Below are positions 23,832 to 56,212 of a stretch of DNA of 64,000 nt, piece after piece. Within the stretch, counting starts at the first letter, position 1. Every line of letters starts with the position of its first letter. Location: the NCBI GenBank assembly GCA_000004985.1, contig GG738864.1. One strand, 5' to 3'. A model generated the notes under the pieces. That model saw nothing but the letters and a program-made list of their open reading frames with translations, had not been told where the DNA came from and ran no database searches. The position numbers and the translations under genes are program-made. The DNA is from Naegleria gruberi. Its lineage: Eukaryota.

Positions 23832-25808
23832 TTATTGTATCTTCCATTGCATGATACAAACATCACCTCCACCAGCACTGAAGAGATAATCACCATTTTC
23901 TGTAAATTTGACATTTGTAACATGTGAACAGTGACCCAAATATTCGACTCGTTGAGGAGTTGTTGTGGCTGTTGGATAGTGGAATGTTGTCACTCTTCCA
24001 TTATCACCTGCTGATACAAGTAATTGTCTTCCAAAATGAACAGCTGTTGCATTGATATCAGTTCCATCCATGTCTGATTTCCAAACACCTCTAACTTTCC
24101 AAGCAACTGTACAAGTAACACTTGCCCAGTCAAATTCTTCCAAATGACCATCATGAGTAAGTTGCTTGCCTTGAGAAACATCCCACAATAAAACTTCGTA
24201 ATCTCCACTCAATGTTCTCATCAATTTACCATCTGTAGTAAAGTCAATTGATTTAACAAATGAAGTGTGACCCACCAACTTTTTGATAACCTTAAAGGTA
24301 CTTGTTTCATACAAATAGATATTATTATCGTGAGAACCAGCTGCGAGGTATTTTCCATCTGGTGAAAATTGAAGAGCAGCAATTTCTTCTTTAGCATCTC
24401 TGGAATTTACAATAGGTTGAGATGAAATAGAGTCTCCATTGAAAGAATAAACGAAAAGAGTTCCATATTTAGTACCTGTTGCAATGTAGTGGCCAAAATA
24501 TGCTACCGATCTCAAATCCCCCTTTGTTGTAACCTTAATTTGTTGTACATGTTTTCTTGTTCCATAATTCCACAAGATTAATCTTCCATCGTCACCGCAA
24601 GAGCAAAAGTATGGGGTTTGTGGAATTGTACATAATCCCCACAATTCAGTTTGTTGATCTCCGTAGTGAGAAACCAATAAGAGCTCGACCTTGGACTTGT
24701 TAGAAATTCTTACCAAATCACCATTTGTCCTGGAAGCATAAACTACATCATCCTCCACTGTTGAAGGAACAACACTTCTAACTTGATCCATTAAATTGAG
24801 GGAGGCAACATCTTTGAACATGTTTACACCTTCAACTTTTTCATTTGTGAATTGCCACCAAATAACTTTACCATCTCTACCGCTTGAAATGAATCCATTA
24901 CTAGTTCTATAAATACAATATACAGTTCCTGAGTGAGCTTGTTTTTTAAAGACAAGTTTGTTTGAAGAAAAGACATAGAGAGAACCGTCCTTCATACCAC
25001 AAATTGGATTTCCCTCCAAATCGTAGCAGGATGTGTAGGATGATTGAGCAGTACCTCTTGGTGAAAAGATTGCTTGATTAAAATGTTCAGTATTGAGACA
25101 CAACGTATCAAAACATACCTTGTTTTGCTTTGAGACCTTCGTTGATTTCAAAGAATTTGGCAGTATTTTTACCTCCAAGTAAAATCTTACTGTCATCTGG
25201 ACTAAAGCTCAAATCAAAAACTTCTCCGTTATGAGCTTTACAATGACCTAGAAGAGTTCCACTTTGCCAATCATAGACCAATAGAAGATTATCTAACTCA
25301 GGACCTCCAACAGCTGCCAATTTGGTTCCATCATTTGAAAAAGCAAGTGTATAAACACCACCATTTTTGAAAAAGATATGTGAATCCAAAACTTGAATTG
25401 GTTCATAAGGGTTACTACTATTCCAAACACAAATTATATTATTCTTTCCCAAATTACCTGTTGCAAATGTTTCTCCATTCGGACTAGAGAATTTCATTAA
25501 TATATTACATCCACTTTTAAAACCTACTGTTTGGCAATACAAGTAACATCATCAGTGTGCTTGATAAATATCTTTTGAGCATTAATTTCTGGATTATAAA
25601 CAACACCACAAGCAGCAGCAGGATAGACCAATTCTCCACTATTATTCATATGGAAAATATTACCATTACATCCCTTCTTACTACACCCATGAATAAATTC
25701 CAACTCGAGATTATTTGGAGGAGGAATATCCAGCAATGAGGAGGCATCCGAAGGAGCATGTAAGGTTGTTTTCAAAAAGCGAGGATGACGGCCAGCAGAG
25801 GTTATCAT
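23832..25808 (-). CDS. EML/EMAP (echinoderm microtubule-associated protein-like) WD40 protein, ~628 aa, 3 exons (25808..~25528, 25483..25119, 25072..23832)
   Basis: The HELP motif region LELEFIHGCSKKGCNGNIFHMNNSGELVYPAAACGVVYNPEINAQKIFIKHTDDVTCIA|KHPNGETFATGNLG matches EML (LELEWVYGYRG...HTDDVKCLAIHPDKIRIATGQ). WD40 blades run throughout. The introns are 44 and 46 nt with GTAGGT and GTATGT donors. Confidence 0.85.
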
Positions 25809-26044: not shown

Positions 26045-26581
26045 ATGGAACAACAATCATTAATGGTGGCCAAATTACCTCCGACTATTCGATTTCTGTT
26101 AGATAAGGCCTTCCGTAGACAAGTATTGGACAAGTGGAGTGATTGTAGTACTTTTACACAATTTATACAAATGTACAGAGTGGAGGCAGTGAGTGGAATT
26201 TTAGGATTAATAGGAAGTTGGGTTCTTGTAAATTGGAGATGGTTGTCTCATCCTGTTAGAGTGTCGTGGACTGCTGATCAAGAGTCGAGTAAAATTGTAT
26301 ATATTTTGACATCAAATAGTAAGAATTTTACAAAGGAATTGGCTATTGAAGCACTCAAAGAATTGAGATATATTCCCGATGATTTTCCAATTGCCACAAC
26401 TAATGTTCAAGTGTTGAGTGACAAGGAAATGCAAGTCACAATCGGAAAACAATCAAAGGAACAATTGAAAGCTTTTGTGGAGGAGAGGGATTTAATGTTT
26501 TCATCAAGTATTAAATCAACATTGTTTGGTACCTTGTTTAGTATTGGAATTGTTAATTGGATGAGAGCAATGACGAAATAG
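26045..26581 (+). CDS. hypothetical 178-aa protein with one predicted TM helix (SGILGLIGSWVLVNW); function unknown
   Basis: ATG-initiated ORF sharing a 236-bp divergent promoter with the EML gene. Confidence 0.4.
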   Translation: MEQQSLMVAKLPPTIRFLLDKAFRRQVLDKWSDCSTFTQFIQMYRVEAVSGILGLIGSWVLVNWRWLSHPVRVSWTADQESSKIVYILTSNSKNFTKELAIEALKELRYIPDDFPIATTNVQVLSDKEMQVTIGKQSKEQLKAFVEERDLMFSSSIKSTLFGTLFSIGIVNWMRAMTK

Positions 26582-26615: not shown

Positions 26616-27071
26616 TATTGTAAGTTTCCAGAAAGCGTTTACGCAAAAAATTAACTTTTTTGATCGACTTGGTGCGACCTGACTTGATTTTGGATGACGT
26701 TAAAAACAGACGACTTTTGATTGATCCCCAAATCAACTAACACCAACCTGCAGTTGAAAGAAGAATTAACTCAATTTATTTTCTTTTGATATATTTGCAT
26801 AATTTGGTGTCAATTCTTCTTACTTTAACCTTTATTTCTCTCCAAGTTCTTTAGAAGTCTATTTGATAATAGTTCCACTGCAGTGCAAGCAATTAAAACA
26901 AGAATTGGATCGACCTTGAATCGATTGTAGTTGATTGCCGGTAGTCTGTGAATCGACTTTGAATCGATTTTGTTGCCAGTAAATTGACTTTTTTTTTCGA
27001 CTTAAAATGACTTTAGACGACTTGACTTGAAGTTAACTTTTGGCGTAAACGCTTTCTGGAAACTTACAATA
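26616..27071. mobile_element. MITE-like non-autonomous DNA transposon (~452 bp) with 27-29-bp perfect terminal inverted repeats and candidate TA target-site duplication (Tc1/mariner-Stowaway-like)
   Basis: The left end is TAttgtaagtttccagaaagcgtttacgc (26616-26644). The right end gcgtaaacgctttctggaaacttacaaTA (27043-27071) is its exact reverse complement. The TIR continues imperfectly inward to ~50 bp (aaaaaattaactt / aagttaactttt). The interior has no ORF and is rich in gacttga / gaatcgat subrepeats. Confidence 0.55.
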
Positions 27072-27187
27072 TCTCATTGATTTAAAATTAAAACAATAAT
27101 AGAGAATTATCTATGAACACATTGTAAATAACAAATATGAAAATTATTACGAAATTTTAAATTGAACTTTCATAATTTTACAAAAAT

Positions 27188-28336
27188 TTATTTGTTTTCG
27201 AAAAGCTTGGCAATATTCTTGCGAGCTTGTTGAAACTTAGTATTTGGACTCATATTTTCCTTATCCATATCGTTAGGGGTTGAGAGTTGCTTATTGACAA
27301 CCTTTGGAGAAACCTTTGGTGAGGCTACAACCTTGGAAAGAGGAACAGGTTTTCTAATTGGAGAACAAGTAAAGCTAGAGCTAGATTCCACATCTGACTC
27401 GGCATCATCTTGTCTTTGTAAATTATGAACACTACTGAACTTATTCTTAATGGCAGCAAACAATTCACCTTGGAATGCATTTGGATTCTTCTTCATTGGA
27501 GTACCACCTGGAGACTTTTGAATTGGTCTTAATTTTACAGAACCAGCCTTCTTAATCAAATCAGATATGGACATTGGTTGTTGATGAAGTGGTTCAGCCT
27601 TAGGTTGCTCGTTGTCGTCTTTTTTAACTATAGTGAATTTTGGTTTGGTAAGAACAATTGGTACTGTTGGAATACTCAACAATGGTGGTGGAGGAACACC
27701 AGCAGCAGCAGCTCCACCTGGAATCATCATCATTGGAGGAGGTTGAGGAATGTTAGAAATTGGAGGAGGTGGTGGAATATTGGTGGCTTGTTGTTGAATG
27801 GAGGATTTGACCCTCTTCTCGACTGTATTTCTGGCCACTGTTTTTCTGAGTGATGAAGATTGCTCGTTTTTAGAAACAATGGCAATTTGTTCCTTGAGCA
27901 TCATCAATTGTTGTTCCAAATCTTCCATCTTGGTGAGTGAATCCAAAGTAGATTCCAGACCTTCTAATGGTGATGTATTGTATGATGATTCTTGTTGTTT
28001 CTTCTTCTTATCGGGAGTAAAGTATCCCATTTGATGTCTCAAACGTTGAAAGTAAGCCTTCTTCTTTCGCTTTCTCTCCTTCATATCCTTCAAGGAGGAG
28101 ACATCATAGTTCTGAGTTATGGCATTAAAGACATCCTTTGCATACTCAACAAACCAATCTCTTGTATTGGAGAGAAGGGCCCACATGAAGAGGAAAGCTC
28201 GTTCGCCAAACACTGGCTGTTCAGATGATGCTGATGATGATTGATAATTGTGAAGACTTGAACTTCCTTGACGATTCATCATCCTAGCATGAGAGTTGTA
28301 ATTATTATTGGGTTGATAGTAATATTGGCCGTTCAT
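27188..28336 (-). CDS. proline-rich protein with WH2-like and C/A-like C-terminal motifs (possible WASP/WAVE-type actin nucleation-promoting factor), 382 aa
   Basis: A coiled-coil segment is followed by polyproline (NIPPPPPISNIPQPPPMMMIPGG...VPPPP). After that comes DLIKKAGSVKLRP (WH2-like), then GELFAAIKNKFSSVH (amphipathic C-like helix) and an acidic tail DDAESDVESS. Confidence 0.5.
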   Translation of the reverse strand: MNGQYYYQPNNNYNSHARMMNRQGSSSLHNYQSSSASSEQPVFGERAFLFMWALLSNTRDWFVEYAKDVFNAITQNYDVSSLKDMKERKRKKKAYFQRLRHQMGYFTPDKKKKQQESSYNTSPLEGLESTLDSLTKMEDLEQQLMMLKEQIAIVSKNEQSSSLRKTVARNTVEKRVKSSIQQQATNIPPPPPISNIPQPPPMMMIPGGAAAAGVPPPPLLSIPTVPIVLTKPKFTIVKKDDNEQPKAEPLHQQPMSISDLIKKAGSVKLRPIQKSPGGTPMKKNPNAFQGELFAAIKNKFSSVHNLQRQDDAESDVESSSSFTCSPIRKPVPLSKVVASPKVSPKVVNKQLSTPNDMDKENMSPNTKFQQARKNIAKLFENK

Positions 28337-28622
28337 ATTATTGTTGTTGTTGTCTTGATGATGCTCGCAGAAATGTAATTAATCATCAACAATAATGTGT
28401 CTAGTGGTTGTTTTTTTTGCTGATGAATTTTAATTTGTTTTGTGAATAAATGTAACGTTCGAATTTTTAATTCAAAACGGTCTTGTTTGGCGCCAAAGAT
28501 TTTATTTACCGTTTTGGATCTCTATTTAATTTAACTGCTGTCAGCCTTCTCTTTGAAACAAAAGCAATGTTGATTGTTATCCATCTGCCAGGAACAGTCA
28601 TCCACAGATTACGAATTGTCTT

Positions 28623-28716
28623 GAGTATCAACAATAATACCCTGATCTTATCTAATATTCAAAACAATATTTGACATTTAAGATATTTCAAGATTAGGGT
28701 ATTATTGTTGATACTC
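28623..28716. repeat. intergenic hairpin: 26-bp inverted repeat (1 mismatch) separated by ~40 nt
   Basis: The arm gagtatcaacaataataccctgatct (28623-28648) pairs with agattagggtattattgttgatactc (28691-28716). It lies in the ~1-kb divergent region between genes starting at 28336(-) and 29361(+). Confidence 0.5.
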
Positions 28717-29360
28717 AAACCAACTCTGACAAAGTATTGATCATCACCACTACTATTCATGCCATTGGAGGAATCATTCTGATATTGAGAAGACTATTGA
28801 GGCTAACATTTGTTTATTTTTCAACAAGGGTTAACATTTTGTTCAAAACAATTACAAAATCATTATTCAAAAAGTAATTATTTTATGGATGGCCCATGGA
28901 AAAAAGCTCTAAATCGACTCGGCATATCCTCACTTCATTATAATTCTACAATGCTCAATATCCTCTCCAAAGGATCAACAAGGATCGTCGAAATGTAGGC
29001 TCAAACTCTGAAAAATATTGCGCATTCTCACTCCGTAAAAAATATCTCTTTTGGTTGGTGATTTTTTCAAACTCCATTGCAATACTACTTCTTGGAGTAT
29101 TAATATCTTTCATCATCACATCTTGTTTATATAATTATAAATAATTATTTTGAGAAAGGATTTTTTTGGAAGATACTATCCCTCTCAATCCGATAATTAG
29201 ATCATCATCATTGGGTGAATTCACTTTTCCAATTTTTTTAAATTGTTGTAGGAGTTTAATATTTCAAACTGTACTTTTTTGCTAGTTGTAAACTCCATCA
29301 ACTCCGTTTAATAGAGAAAGAACATCCTTTTTGTTAGAAGAAGATAAATAACAGTTCAAC

Positions 29361-31787
29361 ATGCAGCCACCATCTGTTCTTCCACCACCACCCTTCTCCG
29401 AGCTTTACGTAAAAAGAGAATCAAATTATGAAGCAGCTGAACAAGTGAGTCATGCCAATAACCATCATCCATCTTTATCACCAGCAGAATCATCCAATAA
29501 CAATTCATCATCAGTAGTTGCTATATCCAATTTCCCACCAATCCTACCTCACCCAATACCAGTAAATACCGTCTCTAACCAACATCCATCCACTCATCAA
29601 CAACAACACTATTCAACAACAACCACCACTATTTTGGATCATGGACCAATGTTGTTAAATAATTCATACCATCAACCACAATCGACATCTTTTAATCCAG
29701 TATCCGCTTCAACAAACACCTCTGAAAAACAACCAAAGAAGAGAAAACAATCATCAGCGTCCATTCCTGTAAACAATATGATGACTGATGTAAACAATGG
29801 TGACTCACCAAAAAAGAAAAAGAAGAGAAAACAAGTGAAAAGAGCTTGTATTAATTGTCATAAGAGCCATGCTGGGTGTGATGAAGTTAGACCATGCAAG
29901 AGATGTGTTTCGTTAGGTTTAGAAGCAACATGTCTCGATGTTGAACCTAGAAATACCAAGAGAAAGTCAAGTGATGTTAAGAGTGAATCAAATAGTAATG
30001 CTGGAAATGGTTTGAGTGCTCCTCATTCTGGAAATCAGAATGTCGTGCAACAGACCTCATCTAATTCAATGCTTTCCAATTCTCATCTCCATTCTCTCCA
30101 CCATCACAACCCTAATAGTACAAATAATACCTCTCAAACAACAGCTAGTTTACCTCCTCCAATTTCTGCTTTGGGAGCTGCTTCATTGGGGGCAACAGTC
30201 AATTTGCATTCTCCACCTCAATTCACTCATCCAGGTCATCATTATTCAGCAGGTGGTCATCATTATGGAGCTTCTAGTGCACCAGGTTCATCTTACTTGC
30301 ATCATCCACTGTATCCACCTTCTGGTTCATTGATGGCTTCTCCTTCACTTTCACAAAATTCTGGAGGTTCAGGAGGATCCTATCAACAATATTCACAATC
30401 CTATCAGAGACACGCATTGTTACCTCCTCCATCATCTCTGATAAATTCAACAGATTATGATAATACACAAAATCCTGCTCAAAGAGGAGTTAATCCTGCA
30501 GGCCAACCAATTTCTGCACAATCACATTTGGCCTTAATTAATAGTGTAATGATGCAACAACAATTACTCATTCAAGCATTACAAAAACTTGAATCAGGTT
30601 CTACATTGGATCCAAGTATTACCAATAGCTTAATTGCTGGAAATAACATGATTGGACAAACATTGGATAACATGCCAACTAAATCTCAAGCATTACCAAA
30701 CTTGGCAGAGAAGACTCCATTAACCAGTTTAGACCCACATCTCAGACCTTCGGGTTACTTTTTACCACCATCTAGTCATTCATTATCTCCACCTAATTTA
30801 CTACCATCTGTAAATAGCAATTTATTATCACCAGGTACAAATACTAACCAAACCCCAATGAATAGAACCTACTCTTCAAGTTCATTGGAAGGATTACTTG
30901 GTCCAGCAACACCAACTGCAGCAACCCCCCTCTCTCATGTTGTTACAACACCTCTCAATTTGCATCCAGAAAGTGGTCCAATTACACCAATGCAAGAAGC
31001 TAGTCTTGCATTGTCAGGTCATTCTAATAGCCAAACTTTGAGTGCAAACAAGAATATTGAACAAACTCATCAACAACATCAACCATTATCACAACATCAA
31101 CATATTCAACAACCTCAAAAGGAAATGCAAAGAAAGGAACCAGAAAATTCTCCTTTACAGGAGAAACAACCAGAGCAAGAGCAAAAAGATGATGAACCAG
31201 AGGAATACGTTGTCAGTCTCTTTAGAAAACCAAATAATGACGTAGATATTATCGATGACTATTTTGCTCTTTTCAACAGCAATATTTCTGATGATGGCTA
31301 TGAGGAATATAATGTGGCCGAAACTCAAAACGAAAATACAACAGAAAGACCATCATCTGAGAATATTGTTGACGATTCGGAATTTAATACTTGTATAATA
31401 GGCAGGGATAATATTAATGATCCTTCACAATGTTCTGGAAGTGTATTCCTACCAGCTGGAGACGTTTGTGTTGCTGTTTGGAAATTGAATGGAGTACTGT
31501 ATTCAGGAAATAAGAACTTTTTCTCAGTTTTTGGAGTGCCAAGCCTTGTTGAAGGCAATCAAATTAATTTTTCATCGATTTTAGATATGGATTCAGATCC
31601 AGATTTGAAACAACTGTTTAGTTGTCGATCTGATTTTTATGCAAAGAAGACTAAATTGCACAGATATGTGGAAAAGAGAGATCAACCTGCAGATACTATT
31701 GAAGGTTTTTTACAGGCCTATGTTATCAGAGACTCTCAAGGAATTTTGCCAATCTATATCACCACCCACATATCTATTGCTAAATAA
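29361..31787 (+). CDS. Zn(II)2Cys6 binuclear-cluster (Gal4-type) transcription factor with C-terminal PAS-like domain, 808 aa
   Basis: A basic run KKKKKRKQVKRA is followed by CINCHKSHAGCDEVRPCKRCVSLGLEATC, which fits CX2CX6CX5CX2CX8C. Long His/Gln/Ser/Asn/Pro low-complexity regions follow. The C-terminal ~130 aa (VAVWKLNGVLYSGNKNFFSVFGV...IEGFLQAYVIRDSQGILPIYITTHISI) looks like a PAS fold. Confidence 0.8.
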   Translation: MQPPSVLPPPPFSELYVKRESNYEAAEQVSHANNHHPSLSPAESSNNNSSSVVAISNFPPILPHPIPVNTVSNQHPSTHQQQHYSTTTTTILDHGPMLLNNSYHQPQSTSFNPVSASTNTSEKQPKKRKQSSASIPVNNMMTDVNNGDSPKKKKKRKQVKRACINCHKSHAGCDEVRPCKRCVSLGLEATCLDVEPRNTKRKSSDVKSESNSNAGNGLSAPHSGNQNVVQQTSSNSMLSNSHLHSLHHHNPNSTNNTSQTTASLPPPISALGAASLGATVNLHSPPQFTHPGHHYSAGGHHYGASSAPGSSYLHHPLYPPSGSLMASPSLSQNSGGSGGSYQQYSQSYQRHALLPPPSSLINSTDYDNTQNPAQRGVNPAGQPISAQSHLALINSVMMQQQLLIQALQKLESGSTLDPSITNSLIAGNNMIGQTLDNMPTKSQALPNLAEKTPLTSLDPHLRPSGYFLPPSSHSLSPPNLLPSVNSNLLSPGTNTNQTPMNRTYSSSSLEGLLGPATPTAATPLSHVVTTPLNLHPESGPITPMQEASLALSGHSNSQTLSANKNIEQTHQQHQPLSQHQHIQQPQKEMQRKEPENSPLQEKQPEQEQKDDEPEEYVVSLFRKPNNDVDIIDDYFALFNSNISDDGYEEYNVAETQNENTTERPSSENIVDDSEFNTCIIGRDNINDPSQCSGSVFLPAGDVCVAVWKLNGVLYSGNKNFFSVFGVPSLVEGNQINFSSILDMDSDPDLKQLFSCRSDFYAKKTKLHRYVEKRDQPADTIEGFLQAYVIRDSQGILPIYITTHISIAK

Positions 31788-42795: not shown

Positions 42796-45700
42796 TCAAT
42801 AGTCAAATAAATCATTCAAAGTTTCAAGTATTGACATGATTGGTGGTCGTTTCTCTTCCTCAGCTTTCCAACACTCCTGAATTAATCCACATAGACTGTA
42901 TACTTTGCTAGCTTCCAATGAATCAAAAGTTTGTGGATTATTTCTCTTACACCACTGAAAACATTCTTCCTTAGAATGGAAAGGGATGAGAGGTCTGAGA
43001 TTATCTTGACAAATCTTACTGGTGAGGAAGGGAGTACTTGGGAATTTTCTTTCCTTATCAAGATTTAATCGTTGTAAAGTTCTTGGTTCAGTGTAAGTGT
43101 AGGCATCTTGACATTCGAATAATAATTGCCACATGATAATGCCAAATGCATAAACATCACATGATTTGGCATCTTGAATAGTTCCATTAATCAATTGAGG
43201 GCTCATGAAATTATGTGTACCAATCAAGTGTGTCATTATTGAATTATTCTTATCTGACATTTTGCGTGACAATCCAAAATCACATAATTTACAAATTCCA
43301 TCTTTGGTTAATAAAACATTTCCTGGTTTGAGATCTCTGTGGACAATTGGAGTTGGTAAAGTGTGTAAATACTCAATACCTCTTGCAATACCTAAAAACA
43401 TTTGAATTTTACGATCAAATGTCATTATGACAGTTCCCTTTTCTAACTCATGAATTACATCAACTAGAGATTTGTCCAATCGTTCCATTACTATAAATCC
43501 CTTGTTAGGCATTATTGAAACTCCATAGAAAGATGTAATATTAGGATGTCTCAATTTGACCAGTATTTTGACCTCATTGATAAATTCCTGATCTTGAATG
43601 TCAGAATCCATTTCGAATACTTTTACAGCAACACTAATTCCTTTCCACATACTTTCTATAACCATTCCTTGTCCTCCTTTTCCAAGTCTCTTTCTATTTC
43701 TCAAGTCCAAATCACCAATAGGAATGATAAAATCATTTTGTGGACTAGATTCTGGATCTTGCAGCTCTATTGGTTTGTAATCATCACCAAATAACAATTG
43801 CTTTGATAGAGAATCTGCATCTCCAATAATTTTCTTCTGTTTTCCATATTTTCTGCACAGGAATACCAATAAAGACACCAATAATATCAAAAGTGCTAAA
43901 AAGACAATACTCAAAACGATTGGAACAATTGCTGAAATAACGGAATCATTCTTTTCACAATAATCTCCAGAAGATCCACTTAAACATTTGCAATCATCCA
44001 CGGAATTACACATTCCACGACCACTACATACGTTTGGATCATTCTGTGCTAAGCCATAACACATGGTAAATTGGCATTGGTTTCCTGTATATCTATTCTT
44101 ACTGCATGTACACTTATCAATATCGGTGCAATTTCCTCGACTTTTGGCACCTCCACACGCATCCGGGTTGACCTTTCCATAGCAGGTTGCAGTTTCACAA
44201 TTACTTCCCAAATATTGATCACTATTGCATTTGCAAGAGTTGGATGATTGGCATGTTCCTCTTCCATTACACACGTCCTTATTTGCATTGGTCAATCCAA
44301 AACACACAGGTATATCACATTCCTTTCCAGTAAATCCAGATTGACATTCACATTGATTATATCCTATGCATTTTCCTTTTCCACAAGCATCCCCCTCTGT
44401 TTTTCCATAACAAACAGGCAAACACAATGTGAAATTATCATTCAAAATGTAGCCATTAATTTCACAGTGTGGTGTCAATGTATAAATTGCTGTTCGAGTG
44501 CAATAAATGATTGAGCCAGTAAGTGGGTCGAATTCAATATCTAAGGCATTCTCATTCAGATTTGAAATAGTTTCCACTTCTCTTTCTGATTTGATTAAAC
44601 TAATTTTCCTTCCATATTTGTGAAGGACAATTATTTTGTTATCTAAATTGAATACAGGTGAAAATGGACCCTCCAATCCTGATTCAGCAATTGTTGTAAT
44701 TATTCCATTCTTATTAATTCTTCTAATTCTGTCATTTAACATGTCGCAAAATACTAGATCTCCGAAATCATTAATCAATAGTCCAGTAGGTTTGTTGAGA
44801 GAGGATTTCGTTGCTTGGATGTAGTTCGATCCTCTACCAACATCTCCGTCTCCTGCAAGAGTTGTCAGCATGCCATTTCTGTCAAGTTTTCTAATATTTG
44901 AAAATAAGTCATCTGTGAAATAAACAACATTGAAACTATCCACAACAACAGAATATGGATAAGCAATGCTCAATCTTTCAGTAATATTATCTCTTCCGTA
45001 TCCACCTAAAAATCATTTGATTAGAATCTTTGAGATTCTATGAAAATTTCAACATACCAGAAATGAATGTAATTTCTTTAGTTCTAATTGAATCTTCACC
45101 AGTCATGTTCAATCCTAAAACTCGGTGATTTCTCGAATCTAGAAAATAAAGCATGTCGCCATCCACAAATAAACCTTTAGGGCTGTTCAATTTAATCTTT
45201 GCTGGACTAGTGTCTCTGTTAAATCCAGAAACTCCAACTCCAATTGCTGTTGAAATAAAATGTGAATTCACATTAATTAGTCTAATACGATTATTGAAAG
45301 TATCTGAAACGAAAATTAATTCATTTCCATCGTGATCTGTATAATATTCAGCAAATGTTGGATAGAGAAAGCTGATAAAATTATTAGAAAGACTATGAAA
45401 GAAGCACATGTACTCACCTTGCACTCAGGGAGGAGCCACCATCACCTCCATAACCATCGCTTCTTCCTGCTATTGTTTGAGTATTGGAATTGGCATTGCC
45501 ATTTTGTAAAATTATCTTTCTAATTCTATGATTTGCTAATATAATTAGAATAGTTTGGAAAATTTGAAAACTTACCAGAATCTACAATATACAAATGGGT
45601 AATCTTCTCTGGTTTTTCAACACATAATAAACCATACGGTTGATTGAATGCTGATGCAAGAGGAGCCCCATCAATATATCCTTGATATCCAACACCTGCT

Positions 45701-47577
45701 AATAAGTATCCTCTAGTTTCTTTTAAAGGAAATTCCAAAATACGATGATTGAATGTATCTGAAACATATAGAGTATCTGAATTTGCAGAATATTTAATGT
45801 CAGTAGGAGCATTCATTTGGATTGCACGTCTTGGCTTACCACTATATGGAATAGCTGACCCATCATTGGGAATGGTGAATGTTGGAATTCCAGCAAATGT
45901 ATCAATTATTCCAGTAAGTAACGAAACGTTTCTGATCAATCCATTTCTTGAATCCACAATATACATGACATTTTTCACTATGCATAATCCTTTAGGAGTG
46001 GATAACTGAGCATTAATAGCTAATCCTCCATCACCACTAAATCCAGATTGTCCAGTACCGGCTACAACATAGATTTTCCCCTCTTTGGTAATTTTTCTCA
46101 CCATATTATTTCCTGATTCAGTGAAATAAATATTTCCATCATCTGCTTTGTAAATCGATAAAGGGGTGTCCAGAACTGCATTACTGGCATCCATTCCATC
46201 TTTCTGCTTATTTTTTTTCGAAGAATCAATTAGTACTGTTTTAACTTTCTTCTTGATAACAGCTAAGGATGTGACAGAGGTTTCTGGATCAATAGATGTC
46301 ACGTAAACGCTCTCATCTTCTCCTAAATCGAGCTCTGTATAAATTACACTTTGAGATGAGGAAATTTCAGTACTACTACCCTCCAAAGAGGATACTCTTC
46401 CTGTTGTGAGCGAAATATTTCGAATAATATTACCATCAGTCACGTACAAATTCCTCAATAGTGGAGATAAGGTAATTTTCTCCATTCCCGAAAATCCATA
46501 TTTTAACATGGGTATTCCGTCTAAACTCAATCCATCCTCTGAGAAGATTTTCATCAGATTTCCATTAATAATTGTTAAAATTGCATCGTGATAGGCAATG
46601 AATACATTACTTCCAATATACATATCAGTTACTTCTCCTAGTTCAACTTTGAGGGCAGGTCCATAACTGTACTCTGTTGAATCCTTTCCAGAACCAACAA
46701 TTGCCTTACTTGTTCCATTTCTATTAATTTCGAATATTCTCTGGTAGCAAAAGGCAAATAATTGATCTTGATAAATAGTGGAGGTTCTTAAAATTGTTTT
46801 TGAATTGATAAATTCTTCTTGGTTATTACCAGCTATGGTTACATTCATTGAAAATAGATATTTTGGTTGATTGCCAATTTCATCAAGAATAATGTAGAGA
46901 GAATCATCCTTCAACACGACGAATATTTCATTAGAATCCAAATTAATCGACATGGTAGCTATTGTCATATTAAAAGCAGCAACAGGTTCCGTCCTCAACT
47001 CATTCGTTGTAACATTAAAAGCCATAATCCTATTCGAATCGGCAAAATACAGCATTCCTCTATTAATGACTGCTCTGAGTGGTGGATTGGTCAATTGAGT
47101 TGGTTTCACAAGTGTAGTTGCCTTCCCTGACTTGGTATCAAATTTCCTAATGGCAGGTATTCCTTTATCAATGAAATACACTTGATCATAGGCAATTCCA
47201 TCATCATGAATACTTTTCGAAATGAAAATCGATGAAGGATTTGAAATTAAAGTACCATTCCAACCACCCTGTTTGCTATTAAATGGTTTTCCATACTCTC
47301 CAATCACAGTTTCCACATCACCACTCGACATGTTCACTCGCATGATGCTATTTTTCGAATGTGAAAAGTAGAAACAATTTGGATGAGAAACGGATGGAAA
47401 TACAGAGAGAATATTTCCGAGTTGAATATCTTGGGATTGAGCCAAGATGTTTTCTGCATAATTTACAGGAAGGGACAATTGGGATTGAACGTGATGATGA
47501 TGATAGAAACAAAGAAGAAGAAATGAAACTAAACAAAACGTGAATGATGTGAATAGTTGCATTTTTTTAAATATCAT
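42796..47577 (-). CDS. receptor kinase A: signal peptide - ~25-30 NHL beta-propeller repeats - 4-5 EGF-like Cys modules - TM - Ser/Thr (TKL-like) kinase; ~1547 aa, 4 exons (47577..45576, 45535..45418, 45371..45058, 45005..42796)
   Basis: Introns are 40, 46 and 52 nt with GTAAGT, GTGAGT and GTATGT donors. A 46-nt intron was chosen over a 25-nt alternative because it conserves the NHL spacing GDGGxxxxAxFxxPxF. The NHL consensus recurs, for example GFSGDGGLAINAQLSTPKGL...YIVDSRNGLIRNV. The EGF-like region is CNGRGTCQSSNSCKCNSDQYLGSNCETATCYG. The TM helix is IVPIVLSIVFLALLILLVSLLVFLC. Kinase motifs are LGKGGQGMV, VAVKV, HRDLKPGNVLL and DFGLS, with APE replaced by SPQ. Confidence 0.8.
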
Positions 47578-48421
47578 AGTGGAACCCGCTCATTGACAGC
47601 AGTTACTTACTCACCTTTCACTGCTGTTGAACTGACCATACCTGGAAGTTAAATAGTGATGGAATACGCTAAATAGTACGAACAAAAGATATTACACAAA
47701 TTACAATAACACAAAACCTCACAAGATGAAAGATTTATACAGCTCTTGCTATGAGAAGGGATTTTGGTTTTGTCAACACACGGTGTTGTTAACAATGTGC
47801 TGTTTACAGTGGTAATCATATCATCTTCGTGCTACTATCTTCTTCAACAACATGATGAGGTGTGGCTCCAAGTCTTTCTACTCACCAAACCAGAAGTTTT
47901 GCACGTAGATTTTGGTGAGTTAAAACAATATATTCTATTAATTCTAAAGAATATTCATCTTCTCTTGCGTTCGTCTTATCATACTTTTTGCAAATAAATA
48001 TTACCTGATGAGAGGGTTGGGTCATATTGCCAACAAGCGTTGCTGGTTTGTTGAGAGTGTTCAAAGTAGCAATTACCACATGTTGTTCTAGAAACAACAG
48101 TACTTCTGGGTTCTTGTACATGAACCTTCATTACCAACAATTTCAAGTAAATGGGCAGGCACTTACTAGATGATGTTTTGGTGAATGTAGTAATGGCTGG
48201 TGTGGAAGGAAGCAAAGGGATAGTCTCAAGGTAGCATGCTGCAGATTGGTATAGCGATGATGAAATCGTGATGAGTTATTATTGTTTTTTTGTTGAATAT
48301 TTAACGGTCAAAACAAACAACTTTCAGCGCGAAATTACAACATAACTACAAAAAACAATAAATTCAAGGTATAGACAAGTGTAGTAACCCCATCAAGGAA
48401 AAATACTTGTTGTGAATGTAA

Positions 48422-48493
48422 TCCCGTGTAGTCCAATGGCTAGGATACCTGGCTTTCACCCAGGAGGTCCGGGTTCAATTCCCGGCATGGGAG
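48422..48493 (+). tRNA. tRNA-Glu (anticodon UUC), 72 nt, no intron
   Basis: The cloverleaf folds by hand. The acceptor TCCCGTG pairs with CATGGGA (one G-U). The D stem is GTCC/GGAT. The anticodon stem CCTGG/CCAGG carries the loop CT-TTC-AC. The variable loop is 4 nt. The T stem CCGGG/CCCGG has the loop TTCAATT. The A box is TAGTCCAATGG and the B box GGTTCAATTCC. Overall it resembles eukaryotic tRNA-Glu-TTC. Confidence 0.9.
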
Positions 48494-48498
48494 GATAA

Positions 48499-48540
48499 TT
48501 TTCCATTTACGATTTAATGTTTATTTCTCACGTTTTTTTA
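48499..48540 (+). terminator. RNA polymerase III terminator T-runs downstream of tRNA-Glu (TTTT at ~48499-48502; T7 at ~48534-48540)
   Basis: The first oligo-T run lies 5-6 nt past the tRNA 3' end. A second longer run lies ~40 nt downstream. Confidence 0.4.
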
Positions 48541-48566
48541 AAAGAAAGTCAATTATATATTCCCAA

Positions 48567-49511
48567 TCATGGCTTCTTACTTGTTTTTTTCTTAATGCAA
48601 ATCTTCTTCTTAATTGACTTGCAACACTTCTTCTTTCCACCAACTAATTTGAATTTCTTACAAATCTTCTTTCCCTTTGAACGTTTCAAGCATTTCTTAT
48701 AATACTTCTTCTTGATACATCTTGGTGGAATGACAATTGACTTTGCACAATACTTCTTCTTTTGATATTTGACACATTTGGAAATAGTCTTCTTGTGCTT
48801 ACAGAACTTGATTGTCTTATGCTTGGCACAGAAGAATTTCTTCTTAATGAGACAACATTTCTTGATGGATTTTCTCTCCTTACAATATTTAACCTTCTTA
48901 TACTTGGCACATTTCTTTGCCCATGCAACAATCTTGCACTTTTTAACATATCTACATTTGGCGACCTTCTTTTTGTAGGAATCAATAGTGTACTTGTCGC
49001 AAATCTTCCTCTTTTCACACTTCTTGATTGGAACCTTCTTGAATTTCTTACAGACCTTCTTAACTCCCTTCTTGAAACACTTGTTGATAATCTTGTGTTT
49101 GGCACAGAATTTCTTGAAACTCTTCTTGATGCAAATCTTTCTAGTTCCATAAGAATCACAAACTTTCCAATACTTCTTCTTGGCACATCCAACAATCTTG
49201 TACGCGTGCAAGACACACTTCTTTGTTGGCTTGCTGTACTTGTCACATTTGGAATATTTCTTATGTTTGAGACATTTGCCAGCACCGACGATGGCATATT
49301 TATCACAGACTTTCTTTTGACCGACGAGTTTGTGTTTCAAACACTTCTTAATCCACTTGTGCTTTAAGCATTTTCTCTTACAATGCTTTGGTTTGTGATA
49401 CTTGTCAACTATGGCGACTGGAGGTTTAGTTCGATAGGTGTCACTTGCTTGAACTGAGAGGATTGCAAGTAAGAGAAGAATTGCAAATGAAAAGATTAGA
49501 TTTGCTTTCAT
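48567..49511 (-). CDS. secreted, extremely Lys/Cys-rich repetitive protein (314 aa; signal peptide MKANLIFSFAILLLLAILSVQA; ~35% Lys, ~12% Cys in CxK / KKC / CxKHK periodic motifs)
   Basis: ATG-initiated ORF. Its composition is far outside this window's norm. The long antisense ORFs over it (48686..49306, 48762..49367) are low-complexity shadows. Confidence 0.6.
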   Translation of the reverse strand: MKANLIFSFAILLLLAILSVQASDTYRTKPPVAIVDKYHKPKHCKRKCLKHKWIKKCLKHKLVGQKKVCDKYAIVGAGKCLKHKKYSKCDKYSKPTKKCVLHAYKIVGCAKKKYWKVCDSYGTRKICIKKSFKKFCAKHKIINKCFKKGVKKVCKKFKKVPIKKCEKRKICDKYTIDSYKKKVAKCRYVKKCKIVAWAKKCAKYKKVKYCKERKSIKKCCLIKKKFFCAKHKTIKFCKHKKTISKCVKYQKKKYCAKSIVIPPRCIKKKYYKKCLKRSKGKKICKKFKLVGGKKKCCKSIKKKICIKKKTSKKP

Positions 49512-49736
49512 TTTTTTTTGTTATTGGATGGAATAGTTCAACAAGTGGGTGATAATTTAAACCCTTTCGAATAGTTTTGCATTAGGAACAAACTAAAACA
49601 AGTTGCATGTAAGGTTCCAATTTTGGATAGAAAGCTGATCTCCATTCGAAATCTTTAACTAATTCAATTTGCAATTCATCTTTCAAAAGAATTCATAATC
49701 TTAAGGTATTGTTTCTCAGAAAATCATTAGATTAAG

Positions 49737-51119
49737 ATGAATCTTGAGTTGCATCGTTTGAAACGCGAACTCATTTCTAATGAACTTTCCAATAAAAAAT
49801 CATCAAAAAAAATGTCAAAAGAACTGCTCATTCAAGACACTTACGAATTTGTGGATATTTTCTCTCAAGTTTTCCAATTCATGGAAATTAAAGATATCTA
49901 TCCACTACAAAGAGTTTCTGGTTTCTTCTATCGGATGATTGAAAACTTGAAGGAAACTTACATTCGTCCAGTTTACGAAATCGGAGTTGTGGCCACAAAC
50001 GAAGAGCAGTTAGAAAATTTTATTCGAATCTATTTAAATTCATCACAACCACCAAAGAAATATCCAACAATGGACGAATTTATTGCTTCGGATAATTTCA
50101 CAGACGAAATTGCTTCCATTAATAATGTTTTTACAGTTTATGAGAAATACGAAAGGCAGTTTATTTTCAAACAAGATAGATTTAGGGCAATTTTCTATCC
50201 GATTCTGTGTCATAGACATGGAAGTTTGGGAAGAGATGAGCTGAATAGATTGGAAGGGTTTATTTTCCTTTCGCCAGAATATTCGACAGGTTATGCACTC
50301 ATGCCTGAGGGTGTTGATATTTGTGCAACTGTTTTGGATGATCACTATTATTCCAGTAAGCATTTCGTTAAGGAGGAAGAAAAGGAAAAGCTTACAGATA
50401 GAGGATTAGGATTTGTTAAAAATCCAAATTCGAATCCACCAAATACGAATCCACCTTTTGTAAAATTGAAGAAAATTCGAATGCCAGTCATTGAATTTGG
50501 AACTGTTGAAGTGGATGAGAAAGTTTACAAGTACCAGGAGGAATCTCTTGTACAATGCTTAATGTATATTGTGAGTCATTCTAAGAGATGTCTAGATTTG
50601 GATCACTCACTTTCGAATAAGAAACAAAATATGGAAGAATTGAAAGGTTCTCAAAAATTATTTGAAAAAATTACAAAATTAATCAAATTGAAAGATGAAG
50701 AGTTGATGAAAACATTGAAAAGTCTTTTCAAAAATCGATTTGAATATTACAATTTGTTGACCACAGACAATTTGGTCTACATGACGAAACGTCTATGTTT
50801 CTTCCACATTCCTCTTGGAGTTCAAGTTGTTTTATTGAAGAAATTATACACTACACTTGTAAAGAATACTGCATCCCTTTCTGTTAATAATGGAAAAGCT
50901 TCTGTCAAAGTGGAAAGTGAATTTATCAGTGTCCAGTACAAGCAATTAGTTTCCACCGACGATTATGAGTATGTTTATGGATATCATACAAGGAAAAATA
51001 AGAAGGACATTCGGATGGTAACTATTCGATTCTATTATGGAGAGAAAATTGAATTTAAATATGAAAATATTGGAAAGGAAAATACCACACAAAAAGAAGA
51101 TAAATGTTCTTTACAATAG
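49737..51119 (+). CDS. hypothetical protein, 460 aa, with an N-terminal F-box-like segment
   Basis: LLIQDTYEFVDIFSQVFQFMEIKDIYPLQRVSGFFYRMI resembles the F-box consensus LPxEILxxIFxxL...LxxVCKxW. The rest is unassigned. Confidence 0.45.
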   Translation: MNLELHRLKRELISNELSNKKSSKKMSKELLIQDTYEFVDIFSQVFQFMEIKDIYPLQRVSGFFYRMIENLKETYIRPVYEIGVVATNEEQLENFIRIYLNSSQPPKKYPTMDEFIASDNFTDEIASINNVFTVYEKYERQFIFKQDRFRAIFYPILCHRHGSLGRDELNRLEGFIFLSPEYSTGYALMPEGVDICATVLDDHYYSSKHFVKEEEKEKLTDRGLGFVKNPNSNPPNTNPPFVKLKKIRMPVIEFGTVEVDEKVYKYQEESLVQCLMYIVSHSKRCLDLDHSLSNKKQNMEELKGSQKLFEKITKLIKLKDEELMKTLKSLFKNRFEYYNLLTTDNLVYMTKRLCFFHIPLGVQVVLLKKLYTTLVKNTASLSVNNGKASVKVESEFISVQYKQLVSTDDYEYVYGYHTRKNKKDIRMVTIRFYYGEKIEFKYENIGKENTTQKEDKCSLQ

Positions 51120-51159
51120 AGTTGAAAAGAGCTGTCAAAAAAGGAAAATAATTGAAATT

Positions 51160-54100
51160 TTATTTGAAATAATTGAGGGAAAGAAGTTGAGATGCATTTG
51201 GTCTTTGTTTTGAATCTTTTTCTAACATTTGCAATACAATTTCAATTAAATCATTCGAATATTCATTATCATTGGATTGTTTCATTTGTTTTGTTAGAAT
51301 GTTGATTGCGTTTTGTGATTGAATTCCCATCAACAAGTTGCTGATTGATGTTTCCTTGTCTTTTGTCATGATTTGATAAATTGAAACACCCAAAGAGAAA
51401 ATATCAGTATTAAAGGAATAGGAACTGCCAAGGGCAATTTCTGGACTCATATCTGAATGGTTTAGTTTCGTCTAAATAAAAAAATAAACTTACATAAAGG
51501 AGTTCCAGCATAGGATTGACCTTTTGATTCTTGAAACTTTTTAGCCAATCCAAAATCTGCCAAAACAATTTCAATTTTTTCACTTTCCAACTTTTTTATA
51601 AATATATTTGTTGGCTTAATATCTCTATTTTTCCAAAATTGATTTTACAAATTCCTAATATATACTTACCTATGAATAATATGCATCTCCTCATGAACAA
51701 GTTTCAATGCACTCAACATTTGTTTCAATATTTGCTTCAATAATTTCTCACTCACTACTTCGTCGTGTTTCAATAAATTTGTCAAATCTCCACATTCATA
51801 ATAATCCATGTCAATAATCAATAAATTGTCGTTGGTGATGAAATAATCATTCACCTTGATGATATTTGGATGATTGATATGGCTCAATTGGGATGCCTCT
51901 TTCATGATGGTATTCAAATCAGTGAATGATTCAAATCTGATAAGTTTGATTGCTTTCAGTTTGTTTCCATGTTTAATATCTGAAACTTTGAAAACACTTC
52001 CAAATGCTCCTTGTCCAATTCTTACAATATTCGAATATCTTGAGAAGGGATTTTCTTCAGAACTACTGGACGAGCCATTTGATGAAGAAATAATCATTGA
52101 GCTGGTGGAAGGAAATTCATTATCCGAAAGTTCAATATTGTTAGTATTGACCTGAACAATTTCCAATTTCTTATTCTTTCTTTTTCTTGAATTGAAGCAC
52201 ATTACCATAATGACTACTATTACAATTATTGTAAACAAAATTAATAAAGATCCAACAATAGGAATAACAATTGCAACTATTAATACTGATGAGTTGGTCG
52301 ATAATTGTCTTGCAATCTTAGTTATTTCACAATACTTTCCTTCAAAATCATCTTTACATTGACACGTGTCAAAATCCGAACAAATTCCATTTCCATTGCA
52401 AACACTTGAATTAGTTGCCAAAGTTCCATTACAATTCAATAGCATATCACACGTATTATTCCAAGTATTGAAAACATAATTTTCCTCACATTGTGGAATA
52501 ATCTTTCGAATATAAGTTGTTGCATCAATGAAGAAAATTTCACCTGAACTTTCGTCAAATTCAACTTGTTTTGTGAAGGAAGTAAATATTGTATCGGAAC
52601 CCTTTCCATCTCCATTGAATGCAGGAGAGGATGACCTCTTTCCAGCCAAGTCAATCAATAATCCACTCTTTTTCTCGTACATTCGAATAAGATTAGGAGC
52701 GCCTTTACTAGTTACTGTTCCATCTAACAATATAATATCACCATTCTTCTTGACAAAGATAGCAGAGGGGTTATCAATCGAAGATTCTAGTGCTGGTAAT
52801 CTGTCTCCTGAATATCCTTGAGAGAAAGTTCCCACCAAAGTTCTCAAATAAAATTGATTATTCGAAATCTTTTCAATTCTTCTAATGGTTTCCATTGTAC
52901 TTAAATAAAGATTTCCATCAATATAAAAAAGTGAAGTAATTAATCCAGGATACGTTTGAAAATTAACAACTATTCCGTCAGTAGATATTGGATTTGAGGA
53001 ATTGAACGTAAATTCCAGATTTAGTAGTTGAGTTTCCAAGCTGTATCTGTAAATATGCAAGATGTCTGATATTACTAAATCACCATTTGATTCATCTATT
53101 GTAAACCCTGACATTGCATTTGGTGGACAAGGTGAAAGTGTTCCCTTGACATTTGGTACAAAAGCTCCACAAGCACTTCCAATCACTCTTTCATAATTCA
53201 TAGTTTCTGGATCAAGTCTGATAATTCTACATGTTTCCTTAATGTATATCTTGTTATCAAATTTGGAAAGTTTACCAAAAGTTTTTAAACCAAGTATTGA
53301 CATGGTGATTGTCAAATAAGGAAAATCAAAAACTGGAATAGAAGGCAATAAAAACCAGCTAAGTGAAATTGACTTGCCTGTTTTTTCGTCAAACTTTTTT
53401 AAAACTCGATAATTATCAATGAAATAGTTTATCTTTTTAGCCGAATCTCTCATCAACAAAACAGGACTCAATGTTTTAGCTAATGGATTGAGTCCAGCTA
53501 TGGTTTTGATTGTTCCATTTGAAATTTCACTGATATAATTGGAGCAGGAGATGTAAATTCTTGAATCTTCTCTGTTCACTTGAATTGCATAACTTTGTAT
53601 TTGATTGTAATCTAATTTCAGTTTACAAAAATTACTTACGTTGCTGAAGTTTCAATAGGAATGTCATCACCATTGAATCCAGATGTATAAATATTAGTAT
53701 TTGAAATGTTAACCGCATCAAGTCCAACAATTTTCTTTAATGAAAGTGAATCCCATGAATATTCATAAACTTGTGAATAAATATAGAAATAGAAAATTCT
53801 GCCAAATGTAGTAAATCCATTAAATGATATATCTGATATTTTTCTAATACTAGTTGTATAATTTCCATTCTTATAATCAATATATTCATAAATACTGTTA
53901 CCAGAATAATATAACAGAGAATTAGTTCCATTTATGGTTAAATCTGGAATAACACGTATCAAACCTAACCCAGGGATATCAATTTTCAGGATATACAATA
54001 GATTGGATTTGTGAAAAACTGAAAAGGTTTGAACGTAAGTTTGATAATAAATTGTTGAATTCTCATAGGAATCCCCTGTTGCAGTAATGGCACTCGAATA

Positions 54101-55548: not shown

Positions 55549-56212
55549 TGAAAGACACCTGCCAACTGTCGCATGTCTTGAGTAATGGTACAACATGTTT
55601 GCTTTATTTTTGTTTATTTTGAACAATACATCTTGTGCGTCTATTTCCGAATAATCAATGTGGGTTAAAGGATAATTGTTCCAACTCCATAACAGATGTT
55701 GTAAAGAAATTGATGTATGGTGATTGGATGAATATTCCTCTTTTTTGGCAAGTTTCGTCATCATCTCATGCGGGTAAATTAGTGTTACTGTACCGTTGTA
55801 GTAGCTCGAACATTCTATGTTCAAAGGATTAGTCTAAATTCGAATAAAAATTAAAGATCTAATTAAACTCCACATGATTCATTTCTTGTGTAATATGCAA
55901 ATTATCAGCAATAGATTCAGGAAATTGTAAACTCCATCTTCATGATCCAATTCATAATATTCATTGTTTTCCAAATTTACAATAACTGAACAAACAAACC
56001 TTGCTTCAAAAAATCAACCAAACTCTCGTAATACCTTGCTTGGTTTTCGTTCCAACAATTCATCTCTTGCTGTAAATTAAGATGAATTACTGTGTGATCA
56101 AGTTTTTTCCTTAGATTCTAGTTGTAAAAGAGAATTCTCCATTTCTAAAAGAGATCCAAAGGAGGATTGACTAAAGTGCATACATATAAGTGTTAAAGTG
56201 ATTGTTTATTAA

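What the first reader, a model, noticed from the sequence alone, without database searches (positions are those of the whole stretch)
26616..27071. Intact MITE-like element with perfect 27-29-bp TIRs and TA duplication
A ~452-bp ORF-less element sits in the 3' intergenic region between two convergent genes. It is bounded by perfect inverted repeats (ttgtaagtttccagaaagcgtttacgc) flanked by TA on both sides. An additional imperfect inward TIR extension and internal subrepeats are present. These are hallmarks of a recently mobilised Tc1/mariner-derived MITE. The perfect TIRs suggest recent activity.
Basis: seen in the sequence. Interest (0 to 1): 0.55.

Follow-up and report, generated by a model that had tools for sequence, protein, structure and literature searches.

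The report
Small non-coding transposon insertion in Naegleria
A 452-base, gene-less DNA segment with matching inverted ends sits between two genes of the amoeba Naegleria gruberi, looks like an ordinary small 'hitch-hiker' transposon inserted at a TA, and appears to be missing from a near-identical environmental strain.

Summary
At 26618-27069 a 452-bp ORF-less segment is bounded by perfect 27-nt inverted repeats. Each is flanked by TA (29 nt perfect, 42 nt at 95%). Simulated windows give at most 18 nt.

The window is Naegleria gruberi. The element lies between convergent genes NAEGRDRAFT_66833 and NAEGRDRAFT_66834.

Four things point to an insertion:
- The same gene pair in three other heteroloboseans is 15-155 bp apart. 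Here it is 606 bp, which is 452 + 154.
- The element is 34% GC. Its flanks are 3% and 16% GC.
- It shows no protein or Rfam similarity.
- An environmental contig 98.7% identical to the right flank runs through the TA. It then reads the left-flank bases, not the inverted repeat. This matches the empty site predicted for a TA duplication and rejects AT or no duplication, but only 2 nt are informative.

The best reading is a non-autonomous inverted-repeat transposon (MITE-like) that is present or absent between close strains. It was probably moved by a Tc1/mariner-type transposase.

Not shown: further copies and an autonomous partner. The N. gruberi assembly could not be searched with these tools. 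The superfamily call rests on the TA alone.

This is ordinary biology and of low interest.

The parts
26616..26617 (.). Left copy of the TA target-site duplication
   Evidence: Read directly from the sequence. A single TA appears at the apparent empty site in L005.
26618..26644 (+). Left terminal inverted repeat, 27 nt, perfect: TTGTAAGTTTCCAGAAAGCGTTTACGC
   Evidence: It occurs only here and at the right end; 0 matches are expected by chance.
26645..26657 (+). Imperfect inward extension of the left arm. With the TA it makes a 42-nt inverted repeat with 2 mismatches.
   Evidence: repeat I1: 26616-26657 against 27030-27071, 95% complementary.
26658..27029 (.). Non-coding core of 372 bp at 34% GC. 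CpG is enriched (15 across the whole 452-bp element, against 5.4 expected). It carries CGAC(C)TT motifs at 26665, 26711, 26911, 26954, 26998 and 27018, all on the + strand. It also carries direct repeats at 26666-26687/27009-27030 and 26906-26926/26949-26969.
   Evidence: The six-frame translation has no protein relative at E<=10. There is no Rfam match at E<=1 and no tRNA.
27030..27042 (-). Imperfect inward extension of the right arm
   Evidence: repeat I1.
27043..27069 (-). Right terminal inverted repeat, 27 nt, exact reverse complement of the left one
27070..27071 (.). Right copy of the TA target-site duplication
   Evidence: The L005 alignment to the window stops at 27070. After that the contig reads the left-flank bases.
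26045..26581 (+). Upstream flanking gene, 178 aa, NAEGRDRAFT_66833. Its stop codon ends 36 bp before the element.
   Evidence: Orthologues sit in the same convergent arrangement in L001-L004.
27188..28336 (-). Downstream convergent gene, 382 aa, NAEGRDRAFT_66834. Its stop codon lies 118 bp from the element.

Best explanation
The segment 26618-27069 is a non-autonomous class II (cut-and-paste) transposon of the MITE type. It inserted at a TA dinucleotide in the short 3' intergenic spacer between two convergent Naegleria gruberi genes.

Inferred mechanism: a DDE/D transposase encoded elsewhere binds the 27-42-nt terminal inverted repeats. It excises the element and integrates it at a TA. Repair of the staggered cut duplicates the TA. 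The TA target makes a Tc1/mariner/pogo (IS630-Tc1-mariner) enzyme the most likely mobiliser.

Shown here:
- the architecture of inverted repeats, TA flanks and no coding capacity;
- that it is extra DNA relative to orthologous loci;
- that a near-identical strain appears to carry the empty site with a single TA.

Inferred only: the transposase superfamily, the existence of other copies, and current activity.

At this site the element most likely has no function. It makes up three quarters of the spacer and could contribute 3'-end sequence to the upstream gene.
For: 1. The inverted repeats are far beyond chance: 29 nt perfect against 12-18 nt in simulations.

2. There is no coding or RNA-family signal.

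3. The convergent gene pair is syntenic in N. lovaniensis (133-bp spacer), a Logan Naegleria-like assembly (155 bp) and two metagenome contigs (15 bp). Here the spacer is 606 bp, which is 452 + 154.

4. Composition changes sharply: flanking spacer is 3% and 16% GC, the element is 34% GC.

5. ENA contig L005 is 98.7% identical to window 28976-27070. After the TA it continues with the two bases of the left flank, not with the inverted repeat. Its first 30 nt (reverse complement) match the predicted TA-duplication empty site exactly and do not occur in the filled window. Predictions for an AT duplication or for no duplication do not match.

6. No 3-10-bp direct repeat flanks the repeat ends under any boundary choice. 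That excludes hAT, Mutator, PIF, piggyBac and similar duplication types.
Against: - No second copy and no autonomous element were found. There is none in the 64-kb window or in 49 kb of related loci. There is none in JGI metagenomes, IMG/VR or GTDB genomes for two 20-22-mers from the inverted repeat.
- The empty-site evidence is only 2 informative nucleotides at a contig end. The two ENA contigs do not overlap; there is a 20-nt gap.
- TA is palindromic, so within one copy it cannot be told apart from an extension of the inverted repeat.
- The terminus TTGTAAG does not resemble classic Tc1, mariner, pogo or Stowaway termini (my own knowledge).
- The subterminal CGACTT motifs all point the same way rather than being inverted. 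That is not the usual Tc1/mariner layout.
Confidence: 0.7

Rival explanations
1. It is a non-autonomous inverted-repeat transposon of a superfamily other than Tc1/mariner. Examples are an ISL2EU/PHIS-type element with an AT duplication, or a type that makes no duplication. The apparent TA would then be part of the palindromic junction.
For: The junction reads TAT|TG...CA|ATA, so TA, AT or no duplication all fit this single copy. Subterminal repeated hexamers are more typical of hAT, CACTA or P-like elements than of Tc1/mariner.
Against: - The L005 junction reads TTTA|TCTCA. That fits only the TA model. The AT model predicts TATA|TCTCA and the no-duplication model predicts ATTT|TCTCA.
- ISL2EU elements have the target A|AT|T, inverted repeats that start with GG, and an animal-only distribution (PMC4482050). 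None of these fits.
- No 3-10-bp duplication is present.
Confidence: 0.12
2. It is a unique, locally generated palindrome. A 42-bp inverted duplication, for example from template switching, arose around lineage-specific spacer DNA. It is not mobile.
For: Only one copy has been seen anywhere. TA at the repeat tips would occur by chance about 7-10% of the time; f(TA) = 0.067.
Against: - The whole 452-bp unit, not just the arms, is the excess over orthologous spacers.
- The composition jump falls exactly at the repeat tips.
- The near-identical strain appears to lack the unit cleanly at the TA.
Confidence: 0.1
3. It is a functional structured element. Candidates are a long-hairpin small-RNA precursor, or a terminator or insulator between convergent genes. 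The inverted repeat would then be kept by selection rather than by recent transposition.
For: It has strong hairpin potential, z = -7.45. It sits between two converging transcription units. MITE-derived miRNA genes are known (PMC1784062, seen as a title and abstract).
Against: - There is no Rfam match.
- It is absent from the orthologous spacers of three relatives, and apparently from a 98.7%-identical strain. It is therefore not conserved.
- Any inverted-repeat element folds this way.
Confidence: 0.05

Closest known systems
Stowaway-like / Tc1-mariner-derived MITEs (for example plant Stowaway, mosquito Tc1/mariner-derived MITE families in PMC3814204, human MADE1 from Hsmar1)
   Same: It is short (452 bp) and non-coding, with terminal inverted repeats of tens of bp. 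It is flanked by TA, can fold as a long hairpin, and lies close to genes in a 3' intergenic or UTR region.
   Different: - The terminus TTGTAAG is unlike the canonical CTCCCTCC (Stowaway), CAGT (Tc1/pogo) or YYAGGT (mariner) ends (my own knowledge).
- The subterminal CGACTT motifs are all in one orientation.
- Copy number is unknown.
- No related transposase has been identified.
Submariner MITEs of Pandoravirus salinus / Acanthamoeba (PMC4495683)
   Same: These are MITEs that the paper's listing links to DNA transposons in an amoeba and its giant virus. That shows such elements exist in free-living amoebae and their viruses.
   Different: The host lineage is different (Amoebozoa, not Heterolobosea). 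The inverted-repeat 22-mer has no match in IMG/VR viral contigs. Only the title and abstract of that paper were seen here.
ISL2EU (PHIS superfamily) non-autonomous elements
   Same: They make a 2-bp AT-rich target-site duplication, so their junctions can look like this one in a single copy.
   Different: ISL2EU duplicates AT within A|AT|T, its inverted repeats start with GG, and it is reported only in animals (PMC4482050). Here the empty-site reading supports TA. The termini start TTG, or TG under the alternative reading.

Membership tests
MITE (miniature inverted-repeat transposable element, generic) | Short (under about 800 bp) and without coding capacity | tested here: met
   It is 452 bp. 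The longest internal ORF is 31 aa. The six-frame translation has no protein relative at E<=10.
MITE (generic) | Terminal inverted repeats | tested here: met
   The repeats are 27 nt perfect (29 nt with the TA) and 42 nt at 95%. The maximum in simulated windows is 18 nt.
MITE (generic) | Target-site duplication, with an empty site in a related genome | tested here: met
   TA lies on both sides. L005, 98.7% identical, reads TTTA|TCTCATTG. That equals the predicted single-TA empty site. The evidence is weak: 2 informative nt at a contig end.
MITE (generic) | Multiple homogeneous copies dispersed in the genome | not testable with these tools
   The N. gruberi assembly cannot be retrieved or searched here. 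There are 0 further copies in the 64-kb window and 0 in the other collections.
Tc1/mariner (IS630-Tc1-mariner) derived non-autonomous element | TA target-site duplication | tested here: met
   The AT-duplication and no-duplication partitions are rejected by the L005 junction. No 3-10-bp duplication is present.
Tc1/mariner derived non-autonomous element | Inverted repeats or subterminal sequence shared with an autonomous element that encodes a DD(E/D) transposase with paired-like HTH DNA-binding domains | not testable with these tools
   No transposase domain was found in any window ORF of 180 aa or more, nor in the 178-aa flanking ORF. No protein matches the element's translations. The genome is not searchable. 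The accessible literature names no Naegleria Tc1/mariner family.
ISL2EU / PHIS | AT duplication in an A|AT|T target; inverted repeats starting with GG | tested here: not met
   The predicted AT-model empty site TATA|TCTCA does not match the observed TTTA|TCTCA. The termini are TTG or TG. The criteria come from PMC4482050.
hAT / Mutator / PIF-Harbinger / piggyBac / Kolobok / Sola / Merlin / Transib | Duplications of 8, 9-10, 3 (TWA), 4 (TTAA), 4, 8-9 and 5 bp respectively | tested here: not met
   The flanks ...TTTTCAATTT(TA) and (TA)TCTCATTGAT share no direct repeat of 3-10 bp under either boundary choice.

The most novel reading that the evidence does not exclude
The element belongs to an uncatalogued TA-targeting DNA-transposon family that is still active in Naegleria gruberi, and insertions differ between strains that are about 99% identical. 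An endogenous, currently active cut-and-paste system in Naegleria would be a starting point for transgenesis tools, which I believe are still limited in this genus.
Probability: 0.2. Interest if true: 0.4.

Novelty: new member of a known kind. Interest (0 to 1): 0.2.

Why it matters
This is mostly housekeeping. [quoted passage not shown] None of the papers found in the searchable library describes a MITE family in Naegleria. If a whole-genome search shows a family with an intact transposase partner, that would document recent DNA-transposon activity in Heterolobosea. It might also offer a native vector for Naegleria genetics. At this locus the element simply enlarges a 3' spacer roughly fourfold, and it is a candidate marker for telling strains apart.

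Tried and rejected
- Retrieving the N. gruberi assembly through exact-protein look-ups of window genes failed. Copy number could therefore not be measured.
- Exact scans with two sub-sequences of the inverted repeat (22-mer and 20-mers) found nothing in JGI metagenomes, IMG/VR or GTDB genomes. These collections probably hold no N. gruberi DNA, so the negatives say little.
- I searched 5.8 billion proteins with a concatenated six-frame translation of the element, hoping to catch gene models or ORF calls over other copies or a transposase remnant. Nothing scored at E<=10.
- Pfam scans of 31 window ORFs (all but two of those of at least 180 aa, plus the 178-aa flanking ORF) found ordinary cellular genes and no transposase.
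- Rfam and tRNA scans of the element found nothing.
- Inverted-repeat scans of N. lovaniensis and other related loci found nothing resembling this repeat.
- Six literature searches found no described Naegleria MITE or Tc1/mariner family. A seventh attempt was rejected by the tool because of an invalid search term. Repbase and Dfam are not available here, so the element may already be catalogued there.
- I considered hAT, Mutator, PIF, piggyBac, Kolobok, Sola, Spy and ISL2EU and rejected them on duplication and target grounds. A Helitron2-type asymmetric inverted-repeat element cannot be excluded from one copy, but nothing specifically supports it.
- I ran no further search on a generic Tc1/mariner query. 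Naegleria hits could not have been singled out among the many transposase matches from other organisms.

Full report
**What is there**

The stretch reads ...TTTTCAATTT TA | TTGTAAGTTTCCAGAAAGCGTTTACGC ... GCGTAAACGCTTTCTGGAAACTTACAA | TA TCTCATTG....
- The 27-mer occurs exactly twice in the 64-kb window: at 26618-26644 (+) and 27043-27069 (-). There is no other match even with 3 mismatches, and none is expected by chance.
- With the TA dinucleotides the perfect inverted repeat is 29 nt. It extends inward to 42 nt with two mismatches.
- In 30 first-order Markov simulations of the window, the longest perfect inverted repeat within 1 kb was 12-18 nt.
- It is also the strongest inverted repeat in the real window.

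The 452 bp between the TAs hold no ORF longer than 31 aa, no tRNA and no Rfam family at E<=1. A concatenated six-frame translation found no relative among 5.8 billion proteins at E<=10. As single-stranded DNA the element folds into one long hairpin: -67.5 kcal/mol against -37.8 +/- 4.0 for shuffles, z = -7.45.

**Internal anatomy**

Beyond the 42-nt arms the two ends are not inverted copies of each other.
- The hexamer CGACTT occurs five times, and CGACCTT once. All six are on the + strand, clustered near both ends. The rest of the window has only four CGACTT on the + strand and two on the - strand.
- There is a 22-nt direct repeat at 26666/27009 and a 21-nt direct repeat at 26906/26949.
- There are two short tandem runs.
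- CpG is about threefold enriched: 15 against 5.4 expected.

These one-directional subterminal motifs may be protein-binding sites. They are not the usual Tc1/mariner layout, where binding sites lie inside the inverted repeats.

**Organism and setting**

The 382-aa ORF at 27188-28336 (-) is 100% identical to Naegleria gruberi NAEGRDRAFT_66834. The 178-aa ORF at 26045-26581 (+) is NAEGRDRAFT_66833. The two genes converge. The element starts 36 bp after one stop codon and ends 118 bp before the other. Pfam scans of the window's ORFs show ordinary cellular genes and no transposase.

**Is it an insertion?** Four independent lines say yes.

1. Synteny. The same convergent gene pair exists in N. lovaniensis, in a Logan assembly of a Naegleria-like organism, and in two metagenome contigs. 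Neighbour orthology was checked at E = 1e-34 to 1e-41. Their spacers are 133, 155 and 15 bp. In the window the spacer is 606 bp, which is 452 + 154.

2. Composition. The spacer outside the element is 3% GC on the left and 16% GC on the right. The element is 34% GC, and the change falls at the repeat tips.

3. No similarity. None of the related loci contains anything like the element.

4. An apparent empty site. The 90%-identity clusters of both flanking proteins each hold one further member, from the ENA metagenome assembly ERZ929261.
   - Contig L006 (98.9% identical to the window) carries the left gene. It ends 12 nt past the stop codon, 24 nt short of the site.
   - Contig L005 (98.7% identical) carries the right gene. 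It runs through the whole right flank and the TA at 27071-27070. It then reads two more bases and ends.
   - Those two bases are those of the left flank, not of the inverted repeat. On the + strand they read TT before the TA.
   - On the + strand the contig begins TTTA|TCTCATTG... Its first 30 nt match the empty site predicted for a TA duplication exactly. They do not occur in the filled window.
   - The alternative partitions of the palindromic junction fail. An AT duplication predicts TATA|TCTCA. No duplication predicts ATTT|TCTCA.
   - A clean single TA looks more like a never-occupied site than like an excision footprint.
   - Caveat: only two nucleotides are informative, they lie at a contig end, and the two ENA contigs leave a 20-nt gap in an extremely AT-rich stretch.

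**Mechanism**

The best-supported explanation is a non-autonomous cut-and-paste transposon.
- A transposase supplied in trans recognises the inverted repeats and integrates the element at TA. Gap repair duplicates the TA.
- The architecture, the insertion status and the TA reading are shown here.
- The identity of the transposase is inferred from the TA target alone.
- No direct repeat of 3-10 bp flanks the ends under any boundary choice. That argues against hAT, Mutator, PIF/Harbinger, piggyBac, Kolobok, Sola, Merlin and Transib.
- ISL2EU is the other family with a 2-bp duplication. It duplicates AT within AATT, has inverted repeats that begin with GG, and is reported only from animals (PMC4482050). 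None of this fits.

**What could not be done**

It could not be run.
- The N. gruberi assembly is not retrievable by the exact-protein look-up.
- The DNA collections that can be scanned gave no hit for the inverted repeat: JGI metagenomes, IMG/VR and GTDB prokaryotes. These negatives carry little weight, because those collections probably hold no N. gruberi DNA.
- The searchable literature gives a repeat content of 5.1% for N. gruberi (PMC6125883). It says few of its repeats are classifiable (PMC12344493). It describes no Naegleria MITE or Tc1/mariner family.
- Repbase and Dfam could not be consulted, so the family may already be named there.

**Rivals**

- A transposon of another superfamily is about 0.12 likely.
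- A unique local palindrome is about 0.10 likely. It is weakened by the whole-unit excess over orthologous spacers, the composition jump and the L005 junction.
- A selected structured element is about 0.05 likely. The element is not conserved even within about 1% divergence.

**Verdict**

It is a MITE-like, TA-flanked, apparently strain-polymorphic insertion. Multi-copy status and Tc1/mariner parentage remain untested. This is a new member of a well-known kind of element, and interest is low (0.2). The most novel reading still open is an uncatalogued DNA-transposon family that is still active in Naegleria (probability about 0.2).

Noticed in passing
window 28613-28726: A compact hairpin lies in the roughly 1-kb divergent spacer upstream of NAEGRDRAFT_66834. 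Its arms are 37 nt at 89% complementarity, around a 40-nt loop. It has no TA flanks. It is also present in the 98.7%-identical ENA contig L005.
   Followed up: partly
window 26665-27024: CGAC(C)TT occurs six times in the element, all on the + strand. GACTT occurs nine times on + and once on -. The motifs are therefore direct across both ends rather than inverted. CpG is about threefold enriched (15 against 5.4 expected).
   Followed up: partly
L005 and L006 (ENA ERZ929261, run ERR1078381, PRJEB11402): An environmental metagenome holds an organism about 98.7-98.9% identical to the N. gruberi reference over this locus. Both contigs break within about 25 nt of the insertion site, in a stretch of about 3% GC.
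   Followed up: yes
window 27141-27171: This is a small hypervariable patch between the window and L005 in the 3' flank of the 382-aa gene, with several substitutions and a 3-nt indel within 30 nt. The 70 nt nearest the insertion site are identical. Elsewhere the two genomes differ by four 3-nt (codon-sized) indels, three of them inside the 382-aa gene.
   Followed up: no
window 42796-60507: This is a run of paralogous ORFs on the - strand that combine NHL/teneurin-like repeats, EGF-like domains and protein kinase domains. It looks like a tandem receptor-kinase-like gene cluster.
   Followed up: no
window 29361-31787: An 808-aa ORF carries a 'fungal' Zn(2)-Cys(6) binuclear cluster domain (Pfam PF00172, E = 5e-5) in a heterolobosean genome.
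   Followed up: no
window 23832-25808: An EML-like (echinoderm microtubule-associated protein) beta-propeller gene is split over three adjacent - strand ORFs, presumably by introns. The HELP domain and the EML propeller were seen on the orthologous ENA contig L006.
   Followed up: no
window 48422-48493: This is the only tRNA gene in the window, tRNA-Glu(TTC).
   Followed up: no
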